Shown here: positions 1,331 to 13,266 of the stretch, piece after piece
How positions within the stretch are numbered: the stretch's first letter is position 1
How the letters are laid out: every line of letters begins with the position of its first letter
IMG/VR virus record: IMGVR_UViG_2541047885_000013
Coordinates: 1 to 13,482 of that record
DNA length: 13,482 nucleotides
Reading direction: 5' to 3' (one strand)
DNA from: a virus
Lineage: Duplodnaviria > Heunggongvirae > Uroviricota > Caudoviricetes
Program-made: the position numbers and the translations under genes
The notes under the pieces: generated by a model
Seen by the model: only the letters and a program-made list of their open reading frames with translations
What the model was told of the DNA's origin: nothing
Database searches by the model: none

Positions 1331-1420
1331 GCTTTTTTATACTAAGTTGGCATTATAAAAAAGCATTTCTTATCAACTTGTTGCAACGAACAGGTCACTA
1401 TCAGTCAAAATAAAATCATT
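1331..1420. other. attL: attL of a lambda-type prophage: 15-bp core GCTTTTTTATACTAA (1331-1345) followed by the P' arm
   Basis: Core is read directly at 1331-1345. The following GTTGGCATTATAAAAAAGCATT..CTTATCAA..TTGTTGCAACGAACAGGTCACTATCAGTCAAAATAAAATCATTATTTG matches the remembered lambda attP P' arm (Int arm-type sites) with about 2 mismatches. Host sequence lies to the left and int immediately to the right. Confidence 0.85.
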
Positions 1421-2489
1421 ATTTGATTTCAATTTTGTCCCACTCCCTGCCTCTGTCATCACGATACTGTGATGCCATGGTGTCCGACTTATGCCCGAGA
1501 AGATGTTGAGCAAACTTATCGCTTATCTGCTTCTCATAGAGTCTTGCAGACAAACTGCGCAACTCGTGAAAGGTAGGCGGATCCCCTTCGAAGGAAAGAC
1601 CTGATGCTTTTCGTGCGCGCATAAAATACCTTGATACTGTGCCGGATGAAAGCGGTTCACGACGAGTAGATGCAATTATGGTTTCTCCGCCAAGAATCTC
1701 TTTGCATTTATCAAGTGTTTCCTTCATTGATATCCCGAGAGCATCAACATGCAATGTTGTAGGGATGGCAATTTTTACGCCTGTTTTGCTTTGCTCGACA
1801 TAAAGATATCCATCTACGATATCAGACCACTTCATTTCGCATAAATCCCCAACTCGCTGCCCGGTAACAACAGCCAGTTCCATTGCAAGTCTGAGCCAAC
1901 ATGGTGATGATTCTGCTGCTTGATAAATTTTCAGGTATTCGTCAGCCGTAAGTCTTGATCTCCTTACCTCTGATTTTGCTGCGCGAGTGGCAGCGACCGG
2001 GTTTGTTGTTATATGGCCTTCAGCCATTGCCTCTCGGAATGCATCGCTCAGTGTTGATCTGATTAACTTGGCTGACGCCGCCTTGCCCTCGTCTATGTAT
2101 CCATTGAGCATTGCCGCAATTTCTTTTGTGGTGATGTCTTCAAGTGGAGCATCAGGCAGACCCCTCCTTATTGCTTTAATTTTGCTCATGTAATTTATGA
2201 GTGTCTTCTGCTTGATTCCTCTGTTGACGAGGATTTTTTCGTAGCGATCAAGCCATGAATGTAACGTAACAGAATTATCACTGTTGATTCTCGCTGTCAG
2301 AGGCTTGTGTTTGTGTCCTGAAAATAACTCAATGTTGGCCTGTATAGCTTCAGTGATTGCTATCCTCCTGTCTCGGCCTAAACCAAACTCTTTACCCGTC
2401 CTTGGGTCCCTGTAGCAGTAATATCCATTGTTTCTTATATAAAGGTTAGGGGGTAAATCCCGGCGCTCATGACTTCGCCTTCTTCCCAT
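1419..2489 (-). CDS. int: Integrase (tyrosine recombinase), lambda Int type
   Basis: 356-aa translation MGRRRSHERRDLPPNLYIRNNGYYCYRDPRTGKEF...RDDRGREWDKIEIK matches lambda Int over its full length from memory; position next to attL and overlap with xis are as in lambda. Confidence 0.96.
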   Translation of the reverse strand: MGRRRSHERRDLPPNLYIRNNGYYCYRDPRTGKEFGLGRDRRIAITEAIQANIELFSGHKHKPLTARINSDNSVTLHSWLDRYEKILVNRGIKQKTLINYMSKIKAIRRGLPDAPLEDITTKEIAAMLNGYIDEGKAASAKLIRSTLSDAFREAMAEGHITTNPVAATRAAKSEVRRSRLTADEYLKIYQAAESSPCWLRLAMELAVVTGQRVGDLCEMKWSDIVDGYLYVEQSKTGVKIAIPTTLHVDALGISMKETLDKCKEILGGETIIASTRREPLSSGTVSRYFMRARKASGLSFEGDPPTFHELRSLSARLYEKQISDKFAQHLLGHKSDTMASQYRDDRGREWDKIEIK

Positions 2490-9813: not shown

Positions 9814-10473
9814 TTAACTAAATGTCTCTTCAGGCCACTGGCTGGCGATAACTTTCCCTACTACGGAACAGCTATCATTGCATGGAATCATTGGATATTG
9901 CGGGTTTAGTGGCTGTAGGAACACCTGACCGCTATCCCTGATCAGTTTCTTGAAGGTAAACTCGTCACCACCAAGTCTGGCTATGCAGAAATCACCTGGC
10001 TCAACAGCCTGCTCAGGGTCAACGAGAATTAACATCCCGTCAGGAAAGCTTGGCTTGGATCCTGTTGGCGCGGTCATGGAATTACCTTCAACTTCAAGCC
10101 AGAACGCACAATCACTGGCTTTTTTGGTTGTGCTGACCCATCTCTCCGCATCACCTTTGGTAAAGGTTCTAAGCTCAGGCGAGAACATCCCGGCCTGAAC
10201 ATGAGAAAAAACAGGGTACTCATATTGTTTTTTAACGGGGGCAGATGAGTATTCGCCAACAGGTGAAAATGTACCGTCGTGGTTGAATGAGACGTTATCA
10301 ATACCAAGGTATTTAAACACCACACCAATCTCGTCAAGAGATGGATGACGAGATCCGCGCAACCAGTGACCAATTCCACCCTGCGTCATACCAAGCTCTT
10401 CAGCTAACTTCTCTTGAGTTATGCCGAGCTCTTTCATTCTGGATCTAGCCAGTTCATACCATTTCATTTTCAT
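9814..10473 (-). CDS. cI: cI-type prophage repressor: lambda-like C-terminal S24 autopeptidase/dimerisation domain joined to a non-lambda N-terminal HTH domain
   Basis: Track ORF 9814..10515. From ...[39 protein letters not shown]... to the end it matches the lambda CI C-terminal domain almost residue for residue (from memory). The N-terminal about 90 aa ([40 protein letters not shown]...) is an XRE-type HTH unlike lambda's. Start chosen at MKMKW (10473); 10467 or 10515 are possible. Confidence 0.85.
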
Positions 10474-10529
10474 ACCCTTATTATTACGCTCTGTACTAAA
10501 ACCATCCATGCACAAGATGTATTTTTTGT

Positions 10530-11232: not shown

Positions 11233-11379
11233 ATGACAAAACAACTCAGTCCTTACCAGGACAAAATTCACAAACACATACTACGTGATCGCTTCCTGTC
11301 CAGCTTCAAGCAGCCTGGTCGATTCCGGGCTGAGTTGGAAAAAGTGAAGCTGATGCAGAAGGAGAAAGGTCATGAGTAA
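11233..11379 (+). CDS. Small hypothetical protein, 48 aa, between cII and O
   Basis: Hand-translated ([48 protein letters not shown]); AGGAG lies 5 nt upstream of the ATG; its 3' end overlaps the O start by 8 nt. Confidence 0.35.
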
Positions 11380-12232
11380 TCTTGCAACCGTAACACATTT
11401 AAGGCCTTCACAACGGCCTGTGGAGCGTCGTGTGGCAGAAGTTGAAGATGGTTATACCCGTCTTGCAAATGCCCTGTATGAAGAGCTTATCGGCGCAGAT
11501 TTAACGAAAAATCAGAGCAAGGTTGCCCACGCCATATGCCGTAAAACATACGGCTACGGTAAAAAGATGGATCGCATCTCTGATAGTCAGTTAGCTCAAA
11601 TTACCAGGCTGCCAAGACAGAAGGTAAACAAGGCCAAGAATGAGCTTATCGCGATGAAGGTTATCCTTCGCGAAGGCCAGCAAATCGGGCCTAACAAGAA
11701 CATCGAGGAATGGCAAATCGAAGGGTGTCACTACTCTGGTGATAATGTCACTGCATTGGTGACAAAAAGTGTCACCAAAACGGTGACAGCGCTGTCACCA
11801 AAACAGGGACACACAAAAGAAACTATTACAAAAGAAAAAAGAAATAATAAAAACACTATGTCCGAAAGTGTTCGGACGGAGTGTGAAAAATCACCTGACC
11901 GTCACGAAGAAACCGACAAGGCATTCGAGGAAATATTCTGGTGTGCAGGCATGCGGAAAGCCGGGAAGAAAAACGCAGCTTCGGCATTCAGAACACAGTT
12001 CAGGGAATGGCGTAAAACTACCAGGGGTACGGCAAGCGAGTTTGCCACGATGCTGGCAGAAGACATCGCATGCAGGAATGGTAAGCAGTTCGGATTCGAC
12101 AGGTTGTTACCATCGAGCTACCTGAACGGTCAACGCTGGAACGACGAGAAGCCAGAAACTATTCAACCACAATCCAAACCATCATCCGCAATCACCGTAT
12201 CGAAAACTGGCTACGTGTTTTTCGACAGGTGA
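11372..12232 (+). CDS. O: Replication initiator, lambda O-like N-terminal iteron-binding domain
   Basis: The N-terminal region ([56 protein letters not shown]...GPNKNIEEW) parallels lambda O (DGYARLSNMLLEAYSGADLTKRQFKVLLAILRKTYGWNKPMDRITDSQLSEITKLP...GPNKNISEW); iterons lie inside the gene. The C-terminal half is not recognisably lambda-like. Confidence 0.8.
11726..11860. repeat. Putative replication origin inside the O gene: GTCAC/GTGAC iterons followed by an AT-rich tract
   Basis: Read directly: TGTCAC (11726), TGTCAC (11745), GGTGACA (11758), TGTCACC (11770), GGTGACA (11782), TGTCACC (11793), then an A/T-rich stretch (about 11815-11860). This organisation is analogous to the lambda origin. 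Confidence 0.6.
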
Positions 12233-12235
12233 ACC

Positions 12236-12343
12236 ATGAAATCAAAAATCAAATCGCTACTGGTCGCTGGTTATAACCACGGTTGGTTAAGTATTTCGTT
12301 TGTCGATTTCTGGTTTAAAAATCTCAATCTGAGGGAATCATGA
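12236..12343 (+). CDS. Small hydrophobic peptide, 35 aa (MKSKIKSLLVAGYNHGWLSISFVDFWFKNLNLRES)
   Basis: Hand-translated; AGGTGA lies just upstream of the ATG; its stop overlaps the start of the primase-like gene (ATGA). Confidence 0.35.
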   Translation: MKSKIKSLLVAGYNHGWLSISFVDFWFKNLNLRES

Positions 12344-13266
12344 CGCCAAGTGAACTCAGCGACCTGCTTTGGGCGCAGGTTGACAGGGTGGCTCCGCACC
12401 TGTTGCCAAACGGCAAGAAAGAGGGGCATGAGTGGGTTGCCGGTAACGTCAACGGTGACAAGGGAAACAGCCTTAAGGTCAACCTTAGCGGCAAGAAAAA
12501 ATGGGCTGATTTCGCTGAGGGAGACGGCGGTGACATGCTTGATTTGTGGATGGCGTGTCGTGGAATTAACCTGCATCAGGCTATGCAGGAAGCGAAAGCC
12601 TTTCTCGGAATCAAGGATGACGATCACCATTTCGATGCCAAACGTGAGAAGAAATTCTCCAGACCTGATCGCAAGAAAATCGCCCGCTATGTTACCAGAA
12701 CAGAATCCCATCTTGAGTACCTGCAATCGCGTGGCATATCGCCAGAAGTCGTAAAGCGCTACGAGGTTGTAAGCGGCAAGGTGTGGAATGGAGAGCGGGA
12801 ACTGGATGCTCTGGTGATTCCGTACAAACGCGATGGTGAGTTGTTGCAGGTCAAGCGAATCAGCACTGAGCGCCCGGACGGGAAGAAAGTCATTATGGCA
12901 GAAGGTGATTGCGAACCTTGTCTGTTCGGATGGCAGGCTCTGGACGCTGGCGTGAGGGCGGTTGTACTTTGCGAAGGCGAAATTGATTGTATGAGCTATG
13001 CGCAATACGGCATCTCGGCGTTATCCGTGCCGTTTGGTGGAGGGAAAGGCGCTAAGCAACAGTGGATTGAGTTTGAGTACCACAACCTCGACAGGTTTGA
13101 GGAAATATTCATCTCGATGGACGTTGATGATGTTGGTCGTGAAGCCGCAAGGGAAATCGCAAGCCGACTCGGTGAACATCGTTGCCGTCTTGTTACTCTG
13201 CCGTACAAAGACATTAACGAATGCCTGATGAATGGTGTTACCGAGGATGAAATCTGGCAGTACTGA
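12340..13266 (+). CDS. Toprim-domain primase-like replication protein, probably truncated at its 3' end by an IS insertion
   Basis: 308-aa track ORF with Toprim-like motifs (VVLCEGEIDCMSYAQYG and ISMDVDDVGREA). Its stop codon TGA (13264-13266) is the first three bases of the IS terminal repeat. Confidence 0.65.
   Translation: MTPSELSDLLWAQVDRVAPHLLPNGKKEGHEWVAGNVNGDKGNSLKVNLSGKKKWADFAEGDGGDMLDLWMACRGINLHQAMQEAKAFLGIKDDDHHFDAKREKKFSRPDRKKIARYVTRTESHLEYLQSRGISPEVVKRYEVVSGKVWNGERELDALVIPYKRDGELLQVKRISTERPDGKKVIMAEGDCEPCLFGWQALDAGVRAVVLCEGEIDCMSYAQYGISALSVPFGGGKGAKQQWIEFEYHNLDRFEEIFISMDVDDVGREAAREIASRLGEHRCRLVTLPYKDINECLMNGVTEDEIWQY

What the first reader, a model, noticed from the sequence alone, without database searches (positions are those of the whole stretch)
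12236..12343. Hydrophobic 35-aa micro-ORF translationally coupled to the primase-like gene
The ORF between O and the Toprim gene has an SD-like AGGTGA, an aromatic and hydrophobic core (LLVAGYNHGWLSISFVDFWF) and a stop that overlaps the next start (ATGA). It could be a small membrane peptide or simply a coupling leader ORF. It is not in the track because of its length.
Basis: seen in the sequence. Interest (0 to 1): 0.35.

Follow-up and report, generated by a model that had tools for sequence, protein, structure and literature searches.

The report
Conserved 35-residue phage replication-module protein
The tiny reading frame between the phage origin-binding gene and the primase/helicase gene is a real, selected gene for a 35-residue soluble peptide of unknown function; other phage annotations already list it as hypothetical, and it is not a membrane peptide or a mere spacer.

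Summary
ORF 12236..12343 (+) encodes MKSKIKSLLVAGYNHGWLSISFVDFWFKNLNLRES. AGGTGA at 12227-12232 contains the stop of the O-like gene. The ORF's TGA overlaps the primase/helicase ATG (ATGA, 12340-12343).

It is a real gene:
- 179 of 180 related loci have an ORF of exactly 35 codons, giving 36 different peptides.
- Only this frame is open in all 48 unique sequences.
- pN 0.26 against pS 0.68; the other frames look neutral.

It matches PHROG 21848 (unknown function) and is ES18 gp60 and epsilon34 gp51. NCBI's PGAP annotation pipeline omits it from RefSeq E. coli genomes.

It is not a membrane peptide: no 19-residue stretch is hydrophobic enough, and relatives carry Arg and Glu in the "core". AlphaFold2 with an alignment gives a helix-loop-helix hairpin.

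It travels as one mosaic module with the last 20-30 codons of the initiator gene and with the primase/helicase. Its codons 32-34 carry the primase Shine-Dalgarno sequence. Primase relatives in Vibrio and Pseudomonas phages lack it.

I infer a small accessory or regulatory protein for helicase loading; this is not shown. In this window an IS3-family element truncates the primase/helicase gene. The gene family is already known; interest is modest.

The parts
11372..12232 (+). O-type replication initiator gene (286 aa). The N-terminal part is a Phage_rep_O domain. The C-terminal part is family-specific.
   Evidence: Pfam PF04492, E 1e-37. TIGR01610. PHROG 277 and 33384. Annotated as replication protein O in homologous phages.
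11726..11811 (.). Four 19-20 bp iterons (TGTCAC-N7-GGTGACA) inside the O gene, followed by an A-rich stretch. This is a lambda-type origin, about 430-510 nt upstream of the micro-ORF.
   Evidence: the repeat finder. ES18 and epsilon34 annotate the equivalent stretch as the origin or O-binding site.
12160..12232 (+). The last ~20-25 codons of the initiator gene (..[15 protein letters not shown]). This 'tail' is inherited together with the micro-ORF and the primase/helicase even when the rest of the initiator is unrelated. The start coordinate is approximate.
   Evidence: Sliding-window identity: window against L076 is unrelated until about -80 nt and 100% identical from -50 nt. Group B loci become homologous at about -90 nt. 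Tail types are listed.
12227..12232 (+). Shine-Dalgarno-like AGGTGA for the micro-ORF. It contains the TGA stop of the O gene (12230-12232).
   Evidence: Sequence. AGGTGA or AGGTGATC is kept in group A relatives.
12236..12343 (+). Micro-ORF: 35 codons plus TGA, MKSKIKSLLVAGYNHGWLSISFVDFWFKNLNLRES. Member of the ES18 gp60 / epsilon34 gp51 / PHROG 21848 family.
12331..12335 (+). GAGGG Shine-Dalgarno sequence for the primase/helicase gene, embedded in micro-ORF codons 32-34 (CTG AGG GAA), 5 nt before the ATG.
   Evidence: Codon 33 is AGG or CGG in 49 of 49 unique sequences. Arg elsewhere in the ORF is mostly CGT or CGC (53 of 82). This always gives GAGG, GGAG or GGGG.
12340..13266 (+). 5' half (308 of about 626 codons) of a T7 gp4-like Toprim primase/helicase gene. 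The start overlaps the micro-ORF stop. The gene is truncated here, and its stop codon comes from the inserted element.
   Evidence: PHROG 239, E 1e-84. Pfam Toprim_2. Full-length homologues have 620-630 aa. Homology to intact genes ends at 13263.
13264..13482 (+). Left end of an IS3-family insertion sequence (TGAACCGCCCCGGG...; orfA ATG at 13318) that interrupts the primase/helicase gene.
   Evidence: This stretch matches 23,549 places in 3,648 E. coli genomes, annotated as IS3 family transposase. Sequence.

Best explanation
Shown:
- The ORF is a genuine protein-coding gene of a lambdoid prophage replication module.
- The gene order is cI, cro, cII, a DUF2740 small gene, an O-type initiator with an internal origin, the 35-codon gene, then a T7 gp4-like primase/helicase.
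- The ORF is conserved at exactly 35 codons, and its amino-acid sequence is under purifying selection.
- It is inherited as one mosaic block with the initiator's C-terminal tail and the primase/helicase.
- It is packed so that its start sits 3 nt after (or overlaps) the initiator stop, and its stop overlaps or abuts the primase/helicase start.
- The primase Shine-Dalgarno sequence is written into its codons 32-34.

Predicted: the product is a basic (net charge 0 to +7, mostly +2 to +5), soluble helix-loop-helix hairpin. Helix 1 covers residues 2-14, the loop lies around the conserved GYNxG, and helix 2 covers residues 20-29. It is too small to fold stably alone, so it probably acts bound to a partner.

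Inferred, not shown: on prophage induction the early rightward (pR) transcript is translated as a relay from O to the peptide to the primase/helicase. This would make the three products in linked amounts. The peptide would then act as a small accessory or regulatory subunit at the helicase-loading step, binding the primase/helicase and/or the initiator tail at the origin. It cannot be part of the core chemistry, because primase/helicase relatives in Vibrio and Pseudomonas phages work without it.

My confidence that it is a real expressed gene is about 0.95. My confidence in the stated role is about 0.35-0.4.
For: Anatomy.

Family membership: PHROG 21848, E 4e-26. Annotated as gp60 in ES18, gp51 in epsilon34, and as a hypothetical protein in vB_SosS_Oslo, vB_EcoP-720R6, SaltyDalty, EKP1, CharmingMan and LMessi. 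The exact peptide is seen on at least 1000 contigs.

Coding signal:
- Column entropy by codon position is 0.76, 0.50 and 1.17. pN is 0.26 against pS 0.68. The other frames give dN/dS of about 0.9 and 2.4.
- 179 of 180 loci have exactly 35 codons, with 36 unique peptides.
- Only this frame is open in 48 of 48 unique sequences.

Synteny and coupling:
- 174 of 178 downstream ORFs are primase/helicase homologues at 62-100% identity, and all junctions lie within -8 to +3 nt.
- All 44 phage records with a full-length primase at 60% identity or more also carry the peptide.

Module boundary: homology between otherwise unrelated initiators begins 50-90 nt before the micro-ORF ATG. Two tail types co-vary with the two peptide groups.

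Gene-sized mosaic unit: between the window and epsilon34, the flanks are 95-100% identical while the ORF is 70-75% identical, with pN/pS 0.34.

Embedded Shine-Dalgarno sequence.

Structure: AlphaFold2 with 36 sequences gives pLDDT 86.6, helix 2-14 and helix 20-29. A natural Pro at position 20 in one allele fits the start of a second helix.
Against: - There is no experimental evidence of translation or of any interaction.
- No homologue has a known function.
- Primase/helicase relatives at 45-59% identity in Vibrio and Pseudomonas phages lack the ORF and couple the initiator directly to the primase. The peptide is therefore dispensable for the basic mechanism.
- The epsilon34-type allele (71% identical) sits between an O tail and a primase N-terminus that are 99-100% identical to the window's. 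There is thus no tight co-adaptation with either neighbour. This fits a host-directed role at least as well.
- Four loci tolerate a 164-aa HNH gene inserted between the ORF and the primase.
- The loci were retrieved through the peptide motif, so the 179/180 census favours intact copies.
- Invariance of R33 may reflect the embedded Shine-Dalgarno sequence and not protein function.
Confidence: 0.4

Rival explanations
1. Host-directed small effector. The peptide does not serve the phage replisome. Instead it binds a host protein specific to Enterobacterales. One candidate is the DnaB/DnaC helicase-loading system, to shut off or divert host replication. Another is a defence component. It simply rides in the early replication operon.
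For: - The ORF occurs only in phages and prophages of Enterobacterales: Escherichia, Shigella, Salmonella, Enterobacter, Pantoea, Erwinia, Mixta, Rosenbergiella, Shimwellia, Pseudocitrobacter. The same initiator-primase pair in Vibrio and Pseudomonas phages lacks it.
- A divergent allele has been swapped into otherwise 95-100% identical flanks. This pattern is common for host-interaction genes.
- The peptide evolves faster than its neighbours: 46-51% identity where the primase is 62-70% identical.
- Precedents: phage 77 ORF104 binds the host helicase loader DnaI (PMC4887207). The prophage small protein YqaH counteracts DnaA (bioRxiv 10.1101/2020.11.18.388090).
- From my own knowledge, not tested here: DnaC is largely confined to Enterobacterales, whereas Vibrio and Pseudomonas use DciA.
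Against: - pN/pS stays well below 1 even between the swapped alleles (0.34), so there is no sign of diversifying selection.
- No match to PADLOC or any characterised inhibitor.
- Strict physical and translational linkage to the primase/helicase in every lineage is not required by this model.
Confidence: 0.25
2. Pure translational-coupling leader or spacer. Only the act of translating the ORF matters, because it delivers ribosomes to the primase/helicase start and sets its expression relative to O. The peptide itself has no function.
For: - Stop/start overlap or near-abutment at both ends in all lineages.
- The primase Shine-Dalgarno sequence lies within codons 32-34.
- The four HNH-containing loci keep a chain of overlapping starts.
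Against: - A spacer would not conserve nine invariant and six further near-invariant residues across peptides 46-100% identical, nor show pN well below pS.
- Relatives achieve coupling with a direct initiator-primase overlap and no spacer.
- The length is fixed at exactly 35 codons.
- No significant RNA structure needs unmasking: z = -1.65.
Confidence: 0.1
3. Regulatory nascent peptide. The conserved sequence acts inside the ribosome exit tunnel to stall the ribosome at or near the stop codon that overlaps the primase start. This would tune primase/helicase translation, as the TnaC and SecM peptides do elsewhere.
For: - Fixed length and fixed distance of the conserved aromatic residues (F22, V23, F27, L32, R33) from the stop codon.
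- The stop overlaps the downstream start, so a paused ribosome would occlude it.
Against: - The most conserved block (L9, A11 to G16) lies 19-26 residues from the C-terminus. The last two residues vary freely. This is the opposite of known arrest peptides (own knowledge).
- The junction geometry varies, including a 3-nt gap in 30 loci and an inserted HNH gene in four.
- AlphaFold2 predicts a confident folded hairpin.
Confidence: 0.07
4. Small membrane peptide: a single transmembrane helix, in the manner of type I toxins, holin-like proteins or other small inner-membrane proteins.
Against: - The highest 19-residue Kyte-Doolittle mean is 0.92 for this allele and at most 1.18 in any of 38 variants.
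- Summed Hessa insertion energies are +6.6 to +13 kcal/mol.
- Invariant N14 and conserved H/R15 lie in the middle of the stretch, and relatives have R19, E20 and E21 there.
- The AlphaFold2 model breaks the stretch with a loop at residues 15-19.
Confidence: 0.03

Closest known systems
ES18 gp60 / epsilon34 gp51 / g341c gp46 / vB_SosS_Oslo AMBK_57A (PHROG 21848, 'unknown function'; UniRef A0A2X7BXE4_ECOLX)
   Same: Same family, and in many records the identical peptide. The position between the O-type initiator and the primase/helicase is the same, and the length is 35 aa.
   Different: Nothing differs in the gene itself. In this window the downstream primase/helicase gene is cut by an IS3-family element, so the module is probably defective. 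None of these records assigns a function.
Direct initiator-primase/helicase coupling in Vibrio phage 1.133.O and Pseudomonas phages phita81A and Ostro
   Same: Homologous primase/helicase (45-59% identity) directly downstream of an initiator-like gene, with overlapping stop and start.
   Different: There is no intervening 35-codon gene and no homologue anywhere in those loci. The micro-ORF is therefore a lineage-specific addition in phages of Enterobacterales.
Small phage proteins that act on replication proteins: phage 77 ORF104 (binds DnaI; PMC4887207), skin-prophage YqaH (acts on DnaA; bioRxiv 10.1101/2020.11.18.388090), and P4 Cnr (regulates the alpha primase/helicase; own knowledge)
   Same: Very small phage-encoded proteins, encoded in or next to the replication genes, that work by binding a replication protein.
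   Different: No sequence or fold similarity was detected. Those proteins have 52 to about 106 residues. The partner of the 35-aa peptide is unknown.
Leader or arrest peptides that control a downstream gene (TnaC, SecM; own knowledge)
   Same: A short ORF immediately upstream of and overlapping the regulated gene, with a conserved peptide sequence and fixed length.
   Different: Conservation is strongest in the N-terminal half and weakest at the C-terminal residues. The junction geometry is variable. No stalling motif was recognised.

Membership tests
PHROG 21848 (ES18 gp60-like 35-aa phage protein, unknown function) | Significant full-length match to the family profile | tested here: met
   hmmscan E 4.4e-26, 91 bits, residues 1-34 on profile positions 1-34 of 35. 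The peptide is 97% identical to ES18 gp60 and 71% identical to epsilon34 gp51.
PHROG 21848 (ES18 gp60-like 35-aa phage protein, unknown function) | Conserved genomic position between an O-type or related initiator and a Toprim primase/helicase | tested here: met
   174 of 178 downstream ORFs are primase/helicase homologues.
Genuine protein-coding small ORF | Frame and length conserved, with an excess of synonymous over non-synonymous change, in this frame only | tested here: met
Genuine protein-coding small ORF | Direct evidence of translation (ribosome profiling, mass spectrometry, tagging) | not testable with these tools
   No paper in the library contains the peptide sequence.
Translationally coupled operon relay | Stop of the upstream cistron within a few nt of, or overlapping, the start of the downstream cistron, with the downstream Shine-Dalgarno sequence inside the upstream coding sequence | tested here: met
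   In the window the O stop is followed by 3 nt and then the ATG, and the micro-ORF ends in an ATGA overlap with GAGG 5 nt upstream of the primase ATG. This is conserved in 178 of 179 loci. The codon-33 bias is shown.
Translationally coupled operon relay | Downstream translation depends on upstream translation | not testable with these tools
   This needs reporter fusions with start-codon and premature-stop mutants.
Small single-pass membrane peptides (type I toxins, small inner-membrane proteins) | An uninterrupted hydrophobic segment of about 18-20 residues able to span the membrane | tested here: not met
   The 19-residue Kyte-Doolittle maximum is 0.39-1.18. Summed Hessa insertion energy is +6.6 to +13 kcal/mol. 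Polar and charged residues are conserved inside the segment.
Ribosome arrest / regulatory leader peptides | A conserved C-terminal stalling motif next to the P-site codon, plus demonstrated stalling | tested here: inconclusive
   C-terminal residues 34-35 are variable and the best-conserved block is residues 9-16. This argues against membership, but stalling itself cannot be tested here.
Known defence or anti-defence, Pfam or NCBIfam families | A profile match | tested here: not met
   No hit in Pfam, NCBIfam, PADLOC or PDB sequences. Foldseek found nothing below E = 2.

The most novel reading that the evidence does not exclude
The 35-residue hairpin would be a previously unrecognised component of replication initiation in phages of Enterobacterales. 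It would be the smallest known helicase-loading adaptor or specificity factor. One possibility is that it docks a T7 gp4-type primase/helicase onto the C-terminal tail of a lambda-O-type initiator. The other is that it blocks the host DnaB/DnaC pathway, so that the phage's own helicase is the one loaded at the phage origin. Its exchangeable alleles would then tune compatibility with the host.
Probability: 0.3. Interest if true: 0.6.

Novelty: already known. Interest (0 to 1): 0.33.

Why it matters
This O-plus-primase/helicase replication module is widespread. It occurs in at least 286 of 5,426 complete E. coli genomes. It is found in P22-like and ES18-like Salmonella phages. It also forms the 'Eru5' replication type of Shiga-toxin phages, for which PMC8951638 states that nothing is known about the replication proteins.

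A conserved third protein in the module is invisible in RefSeq annotation. It would have to be included in any reconstitution or genetic dissection of how these phages load their helicase. If it turned out to target the host replication machinery, it would also be a candidate lead for a small antibacterial peptide.

More generally, this is a clean example of a micro-gene that standard pipelines drop and that comparative analysis shows to be under selection.

Tried and rejected
- The word-indexed protein search refuses queries under 40 aa, both for the peptide and for its alignment.
- The exhaustive representative search found only three true clusters. Two apparent hits (P0003, P0004) are repeat proteins with a chance 'GWQDISKVDFWLT' match.
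- Longer 'members' of the peptide's 90% clusters (pentapeptide-repeat fragments, Enterobacter initiator fragments) do not contain the peptide. They are clustering artefacts.
- AlphaFold2 on the single sequence gave one long helix. I discount this in favour of the alignment-based hairpin. A natural Pro20 allele also argues against a continuous helix.
No complex prediction with O or the primase was possible.
- Foldseek searches of BFVD and PDB returned nothing below E = 2.
- RNA folding of 12200-12400 is not better than shuffles (z = -1.65). No convincing promoter or terminator lies in or around the ORF.
- Some phage records label the initiator 'DnaT / primosomal protein I'. Neither Pfam nor PDB sequence searches of a C-domain profile reproduced this, so I do not rely on it.
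- In the window the O gene and the micro-ORF share a frame, so TGA readthrough would fuse them. One metagenomic lineage (P0005; L105, L106) lacks the stop. Group B relatives use a frame-shifting ATGA overlap, so programmed readthrough is not a conserved feature.
- A WW-domain-like reading of 'YNHG' was considered. It has no profile support.

Full report
**Observation**

The window is the early region of a lambdoid prophage. It holds:
- an integrase (1419-2489, minus strand);
- RecT-like and Gam-like genes, and an N-like antiterminator;
- a cI-type repressor (9814-10515, minus strand);
- cro, cII, and a 48-aa DUF2740 gene;
- an O-type initiator (11372-12232);
- a Toprim primase/helicase (12340 onward).

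The reported ORF is exactly as described. It runs from ATG at 12236 to TGA at 12341-12343 and has 35 codons: MKSKIKSLLVAGYNHGWLSISFVDFWFKNLNLRES. AGGTGA at 12227-12232 contains the O stop codon and lies 3 nt before the ATG. ATGA at 12340-12343 joins the ORF's stop to the primase start, with GAGG 5 nt upstream. An ORF of 35 codons is not remarkable by itself: one search lists 40 ORFs of at least 30 aa in 4 kb. The case therefore rests on comparison with related sequences.

**It is a real gene, and an already catalogued one**

- The peptide matches PHROG 21848, a 35-position profile of unknown function, at E 4e-26.
- It has no match in Pfam, NCBIfam, PADLOC or PDB sequences.
- The same ORF is annotated as gp60 in ES18 ('function unknown') and gp51 in epsilon34. 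It is annotated as hypothetical in g341c, vB_SosS_Oslo, vB_EcoP-720R6, SaltyDalty, EKP1, CharmingMan and LMessi.
- The exact peptide is on record from at least 1000 contigs under names such as 'Uncharacterised protein'.
- RefSeq/PGAP annotation of E. coli genomes leaves the gap empty. This explains why it was 'not in the track'.

I fetched 180 related loci from IMG/VR, GTDB genomes and GenBank phages.
- 179 contain an ORF of exactly 35 codons, giving 36 different peptides and 48-49 different nucleotide sequences.
- The peptides are 46-100% identical to the window's.
- M1, K6, L9, G12, Y13, N14, G16, F27 and R33 are invariant. K2, A11, L18, F22, V23 and L32 are nearly so. Rare G12A and other variants exist in larger collections.
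- Variation falls mainly on third codon positions: column entropy is 0.76, 0.50 and 1.17 for positions 1, 2 and 3.
- Mean pN is 0.26 against pS 0.68, with median dN/dS about 0.2. The two alternative frames give about 0.9 and 2.4.
- Only this frame is open in all 48 unique sequences. The other frames are open in 0-22 of them.
- Caveat: the loci were found through the peptide motif, which favours intact copies. A less biased check agrees. All 44 phage records with a full-length primase at 60% identity or more also carry the peptide.

**It is not a membrane peptide**

- Across 38 variants, the best 19-residue Kyte-Doolittle mean is 0.39-1.18, against a threshold of about 1.6.
- Summed Hessa insertion energies are +6.6 to +13 kcal/mol.
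- Relatives carry up to four charged residues inside positions 8-27, for example LREEFVTMCF.
- The peptides are mostly basic (net charge 0 to +7, most +2 to +5).
- AlphaFold2 on the single sequence drew one long helix.
- With a 36-sequence alignment it gave a hairpin: helix 2-14, loop 15-19, helix 20-29, flexible tail. pLDDT is 86.6 and pTM 0.52.
- A natural allele with Pro at position 20 fits the start of a second helix.
- Foldseek found nothing significant, as expected for so small a fold.

**Coupling architecture**

- In 178 of 179 loci the next gene starts within -8 to +3 nt of the micro-ORF stop. The junctions vary: ATGA, TGATG, TAATG, TGA-gtt-ATG.
- The initiator stop lies within -4 to +8 nt of the micro-ORF start.
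- Codon 33 is AGG or CGG in 49 of 49 unique sequences, whereas Arg elsewhere in the ORF is mostly CGT or CGC. The conserved 'LR' thus spells GAGG, GGAG or GGGG, the primase Shine-Dalgarno sequence. Part of the C-terminal conservation is therefore at the nucleotide level.
- No significant RNA structure (z = -1.65) and no internal promoter or terminator was found.

**Module structure**

- Initiators that are otherwise unrelated become homologous only in their last 50-90 nt. The homology then runs on through the micro-ORF and the primase/helicase. At least three or four different C-terminal body types are involved.
- There are two tail types. ..[15 protein letters not shown] accompanies peptides of the type IKSLL(V/I)AGYNHG. 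..AEVFINQAAIDRMKRGxxRP accompanies the type LKR(L/V)LVAGYN(H/R)G.
- The recombining unit is therefore initiator tail + micro-ORF + primase/helicase. This places the peptide on the helicase side of the module. It also suggests that the tail is the docking element for what follows (inference, by analogy with the C-terminal domain of lambda O and the P protein; own knowledge).
- The ORF is also a gene-sized mosaic unit of its own. Between the window and epsilon34, the O tail and primase N-terminus are 99-100% identical in protein and 95-100% in DNA. The ORF drops to 70-75% nucleotide and 71% amino-acid identity, with pN/pS 0.34. This is an old allele brought in by recombination, not a burst of adaptive change.

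**Phyletic limits**

The primase/helicase is distantly T7 gp4-like (about 30% identity over the Toprim region). Full-length relatives at 45-59% identity in Vibrio and Pseudomonas phages have no such ORF. There the initiator stop overlaps the primase start directly, and a family profile finds nothing in any frame. The exhaustive search of 1.84 billion representatives found only three true clusters. The gene is thus a lineage-specific addition in phages of Enterobacterales. It cannot be required for the basic initiator-helicase mechanism or for coupling.

**Interpretation**

Shown: a selected, conserved 35-residue product, tight polycistronic packing, an embedded Shine-Dalgarno sequence, and co-inheritance with the helicase side of the module.

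Inferred: the peptide is a partner-bound accessory or regulator of helicase loading at the phage origin. The origin has four iterons at 11726-11811.

| Reading | Confidence |
|---|---|
| Real expressed gene | about 0.95 |
| Accessory or regulator of helicase loading | 0.35-0.4 |
| Host-directed effector | about 0.25 |
| Pure coupling spacer | about 0.1 |
| Regulatory nascent peptide | about 0.07 |
| Membrane peptide | about 0.03 |

The host-directed reading is favoured by the restriction to Enterobacterales and by the freely exchangeable alleles. Its precedents are phage 77 ORF104 (PMC4887207) and YqaH (bioRxiv 10.1101/2020.11.18.388090).

**Local state**

In this window an IS3-family element starts at 13264. 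It cuts the primase/helicase after codon 308 of about 626 and supplies its stop codon. This prophage copy has therefore lost its helicase domain. The micro-ORF is intact and identical to the commonest allele.

**Novelty and interest**

The ORF family is already in public annotation and in PHROGs, so the feature is known, though functionally blank. The module equals the 'Eru5' replication type of Shiga-toxin phages, whose replication proteins are uncharacterised (PMC8951638). The finding is a solid, ordinary-looking conserved micro-gene with a modest chance of hiding a new small replication factor. I score interest at about 0.33.

Noticed in passing
window 13264-13482: An IS3-family insertion sequence interrupts the primase/helicase gene after codon 308 of about 626. 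It starts TGAACCGCCCCGGG, and its orfA ([16 protein letters not shown]...) starts at 13318. Its terminal TGA provides the stop codon of the truncated ORF. This prophage has probably lost autonomous replication. From memory the element resembles IS629/IS1203; I did not verify this.
   Followed up: partly
L014 3105-3599 (also L047, L058, L088): In four IMG/VR contigs, a 164-aa HNH-type homing-endonuclease-like ORF is inserted exactly at the ATGA junction between the micro-ORF and the primase/helicase. It takes over the ATG. The primase gene restarts with a new N-terminus (MEAPLSPSEL...) that overlaps the end of the HNH gene.
   Followed up: partly
window 12253-12330 compared with L002 (epsilon34) 1837-1944: There is a sharply bounded patch of 70-75% nucleotide identity, exactly the size of the micro-ORF, inside flanks that are 95-100% identical. 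The 35-codon gene is exchanged as its own mosaic unit.
   Followed up: yes
window about 12150-12232; L005-L007 about 2410-2504: A mosaic breakpoint lies inside the initiator gene, 50-90 nt before its stop. Initiators with unrelated bodies share one of two conserved C-terminal tails, and the tail type tracks the downstream peptide and primase type.
   Followed up: yes
window 11372-12343; L105 1658-2053; L106 176-571: In the window the O gene and the micro-ORF are in the same frame, separated only by TGA-ACC. In one metagenomic lineage (P0005) the stop is absent, and the O C-terminal domain is fused in frame to the peptide. Those contigs also show frameshifts elsewhere, so assembly error or gene decay cannot be excluded.
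   Followed up: partly
window 11726-11811: Four iterons (TGTCAC-N7-GGTGACA) spaced 20-24 bp apart lie inside the O gene, followed by an A-rich repeat (ACAAAAGAAA twice, 11813-11837). This is a lambda-type origin. The minus-strand 'terminator-like' hits at 11770-11800 are these palindromic iterons.
   Followed up: partly
window 11233-11379: A second small gene of 48 aa (DUF2740 / HK97 gp53-like) overlaps the O start. It matches PHROG 1913, whose label 'tail protein' looks like a mis-annotation given its position in the early replication operon.
   Followed up: no
L007 (OM284015.1, 'Elizabethkingia phage EKP1'): A phage recorded as infecting Elizabethkingia (Bacteroidota) carries an enterobacterial-type lambdoid module of cI, cro, initiator, micro-ORF, primase/helicase and Q. 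The host assignment may deserve a second look.
   Followed up: no
clusters of P0006 and P0043: The 90%-identity clusters that hold the 35-aa peptides also list unrelated longer proteins (pentapeptide-repeat fragments, initiator fragments) that do not contain the peptide. This looks like a clustering artefact for very short sequences.
   Followed up: partly
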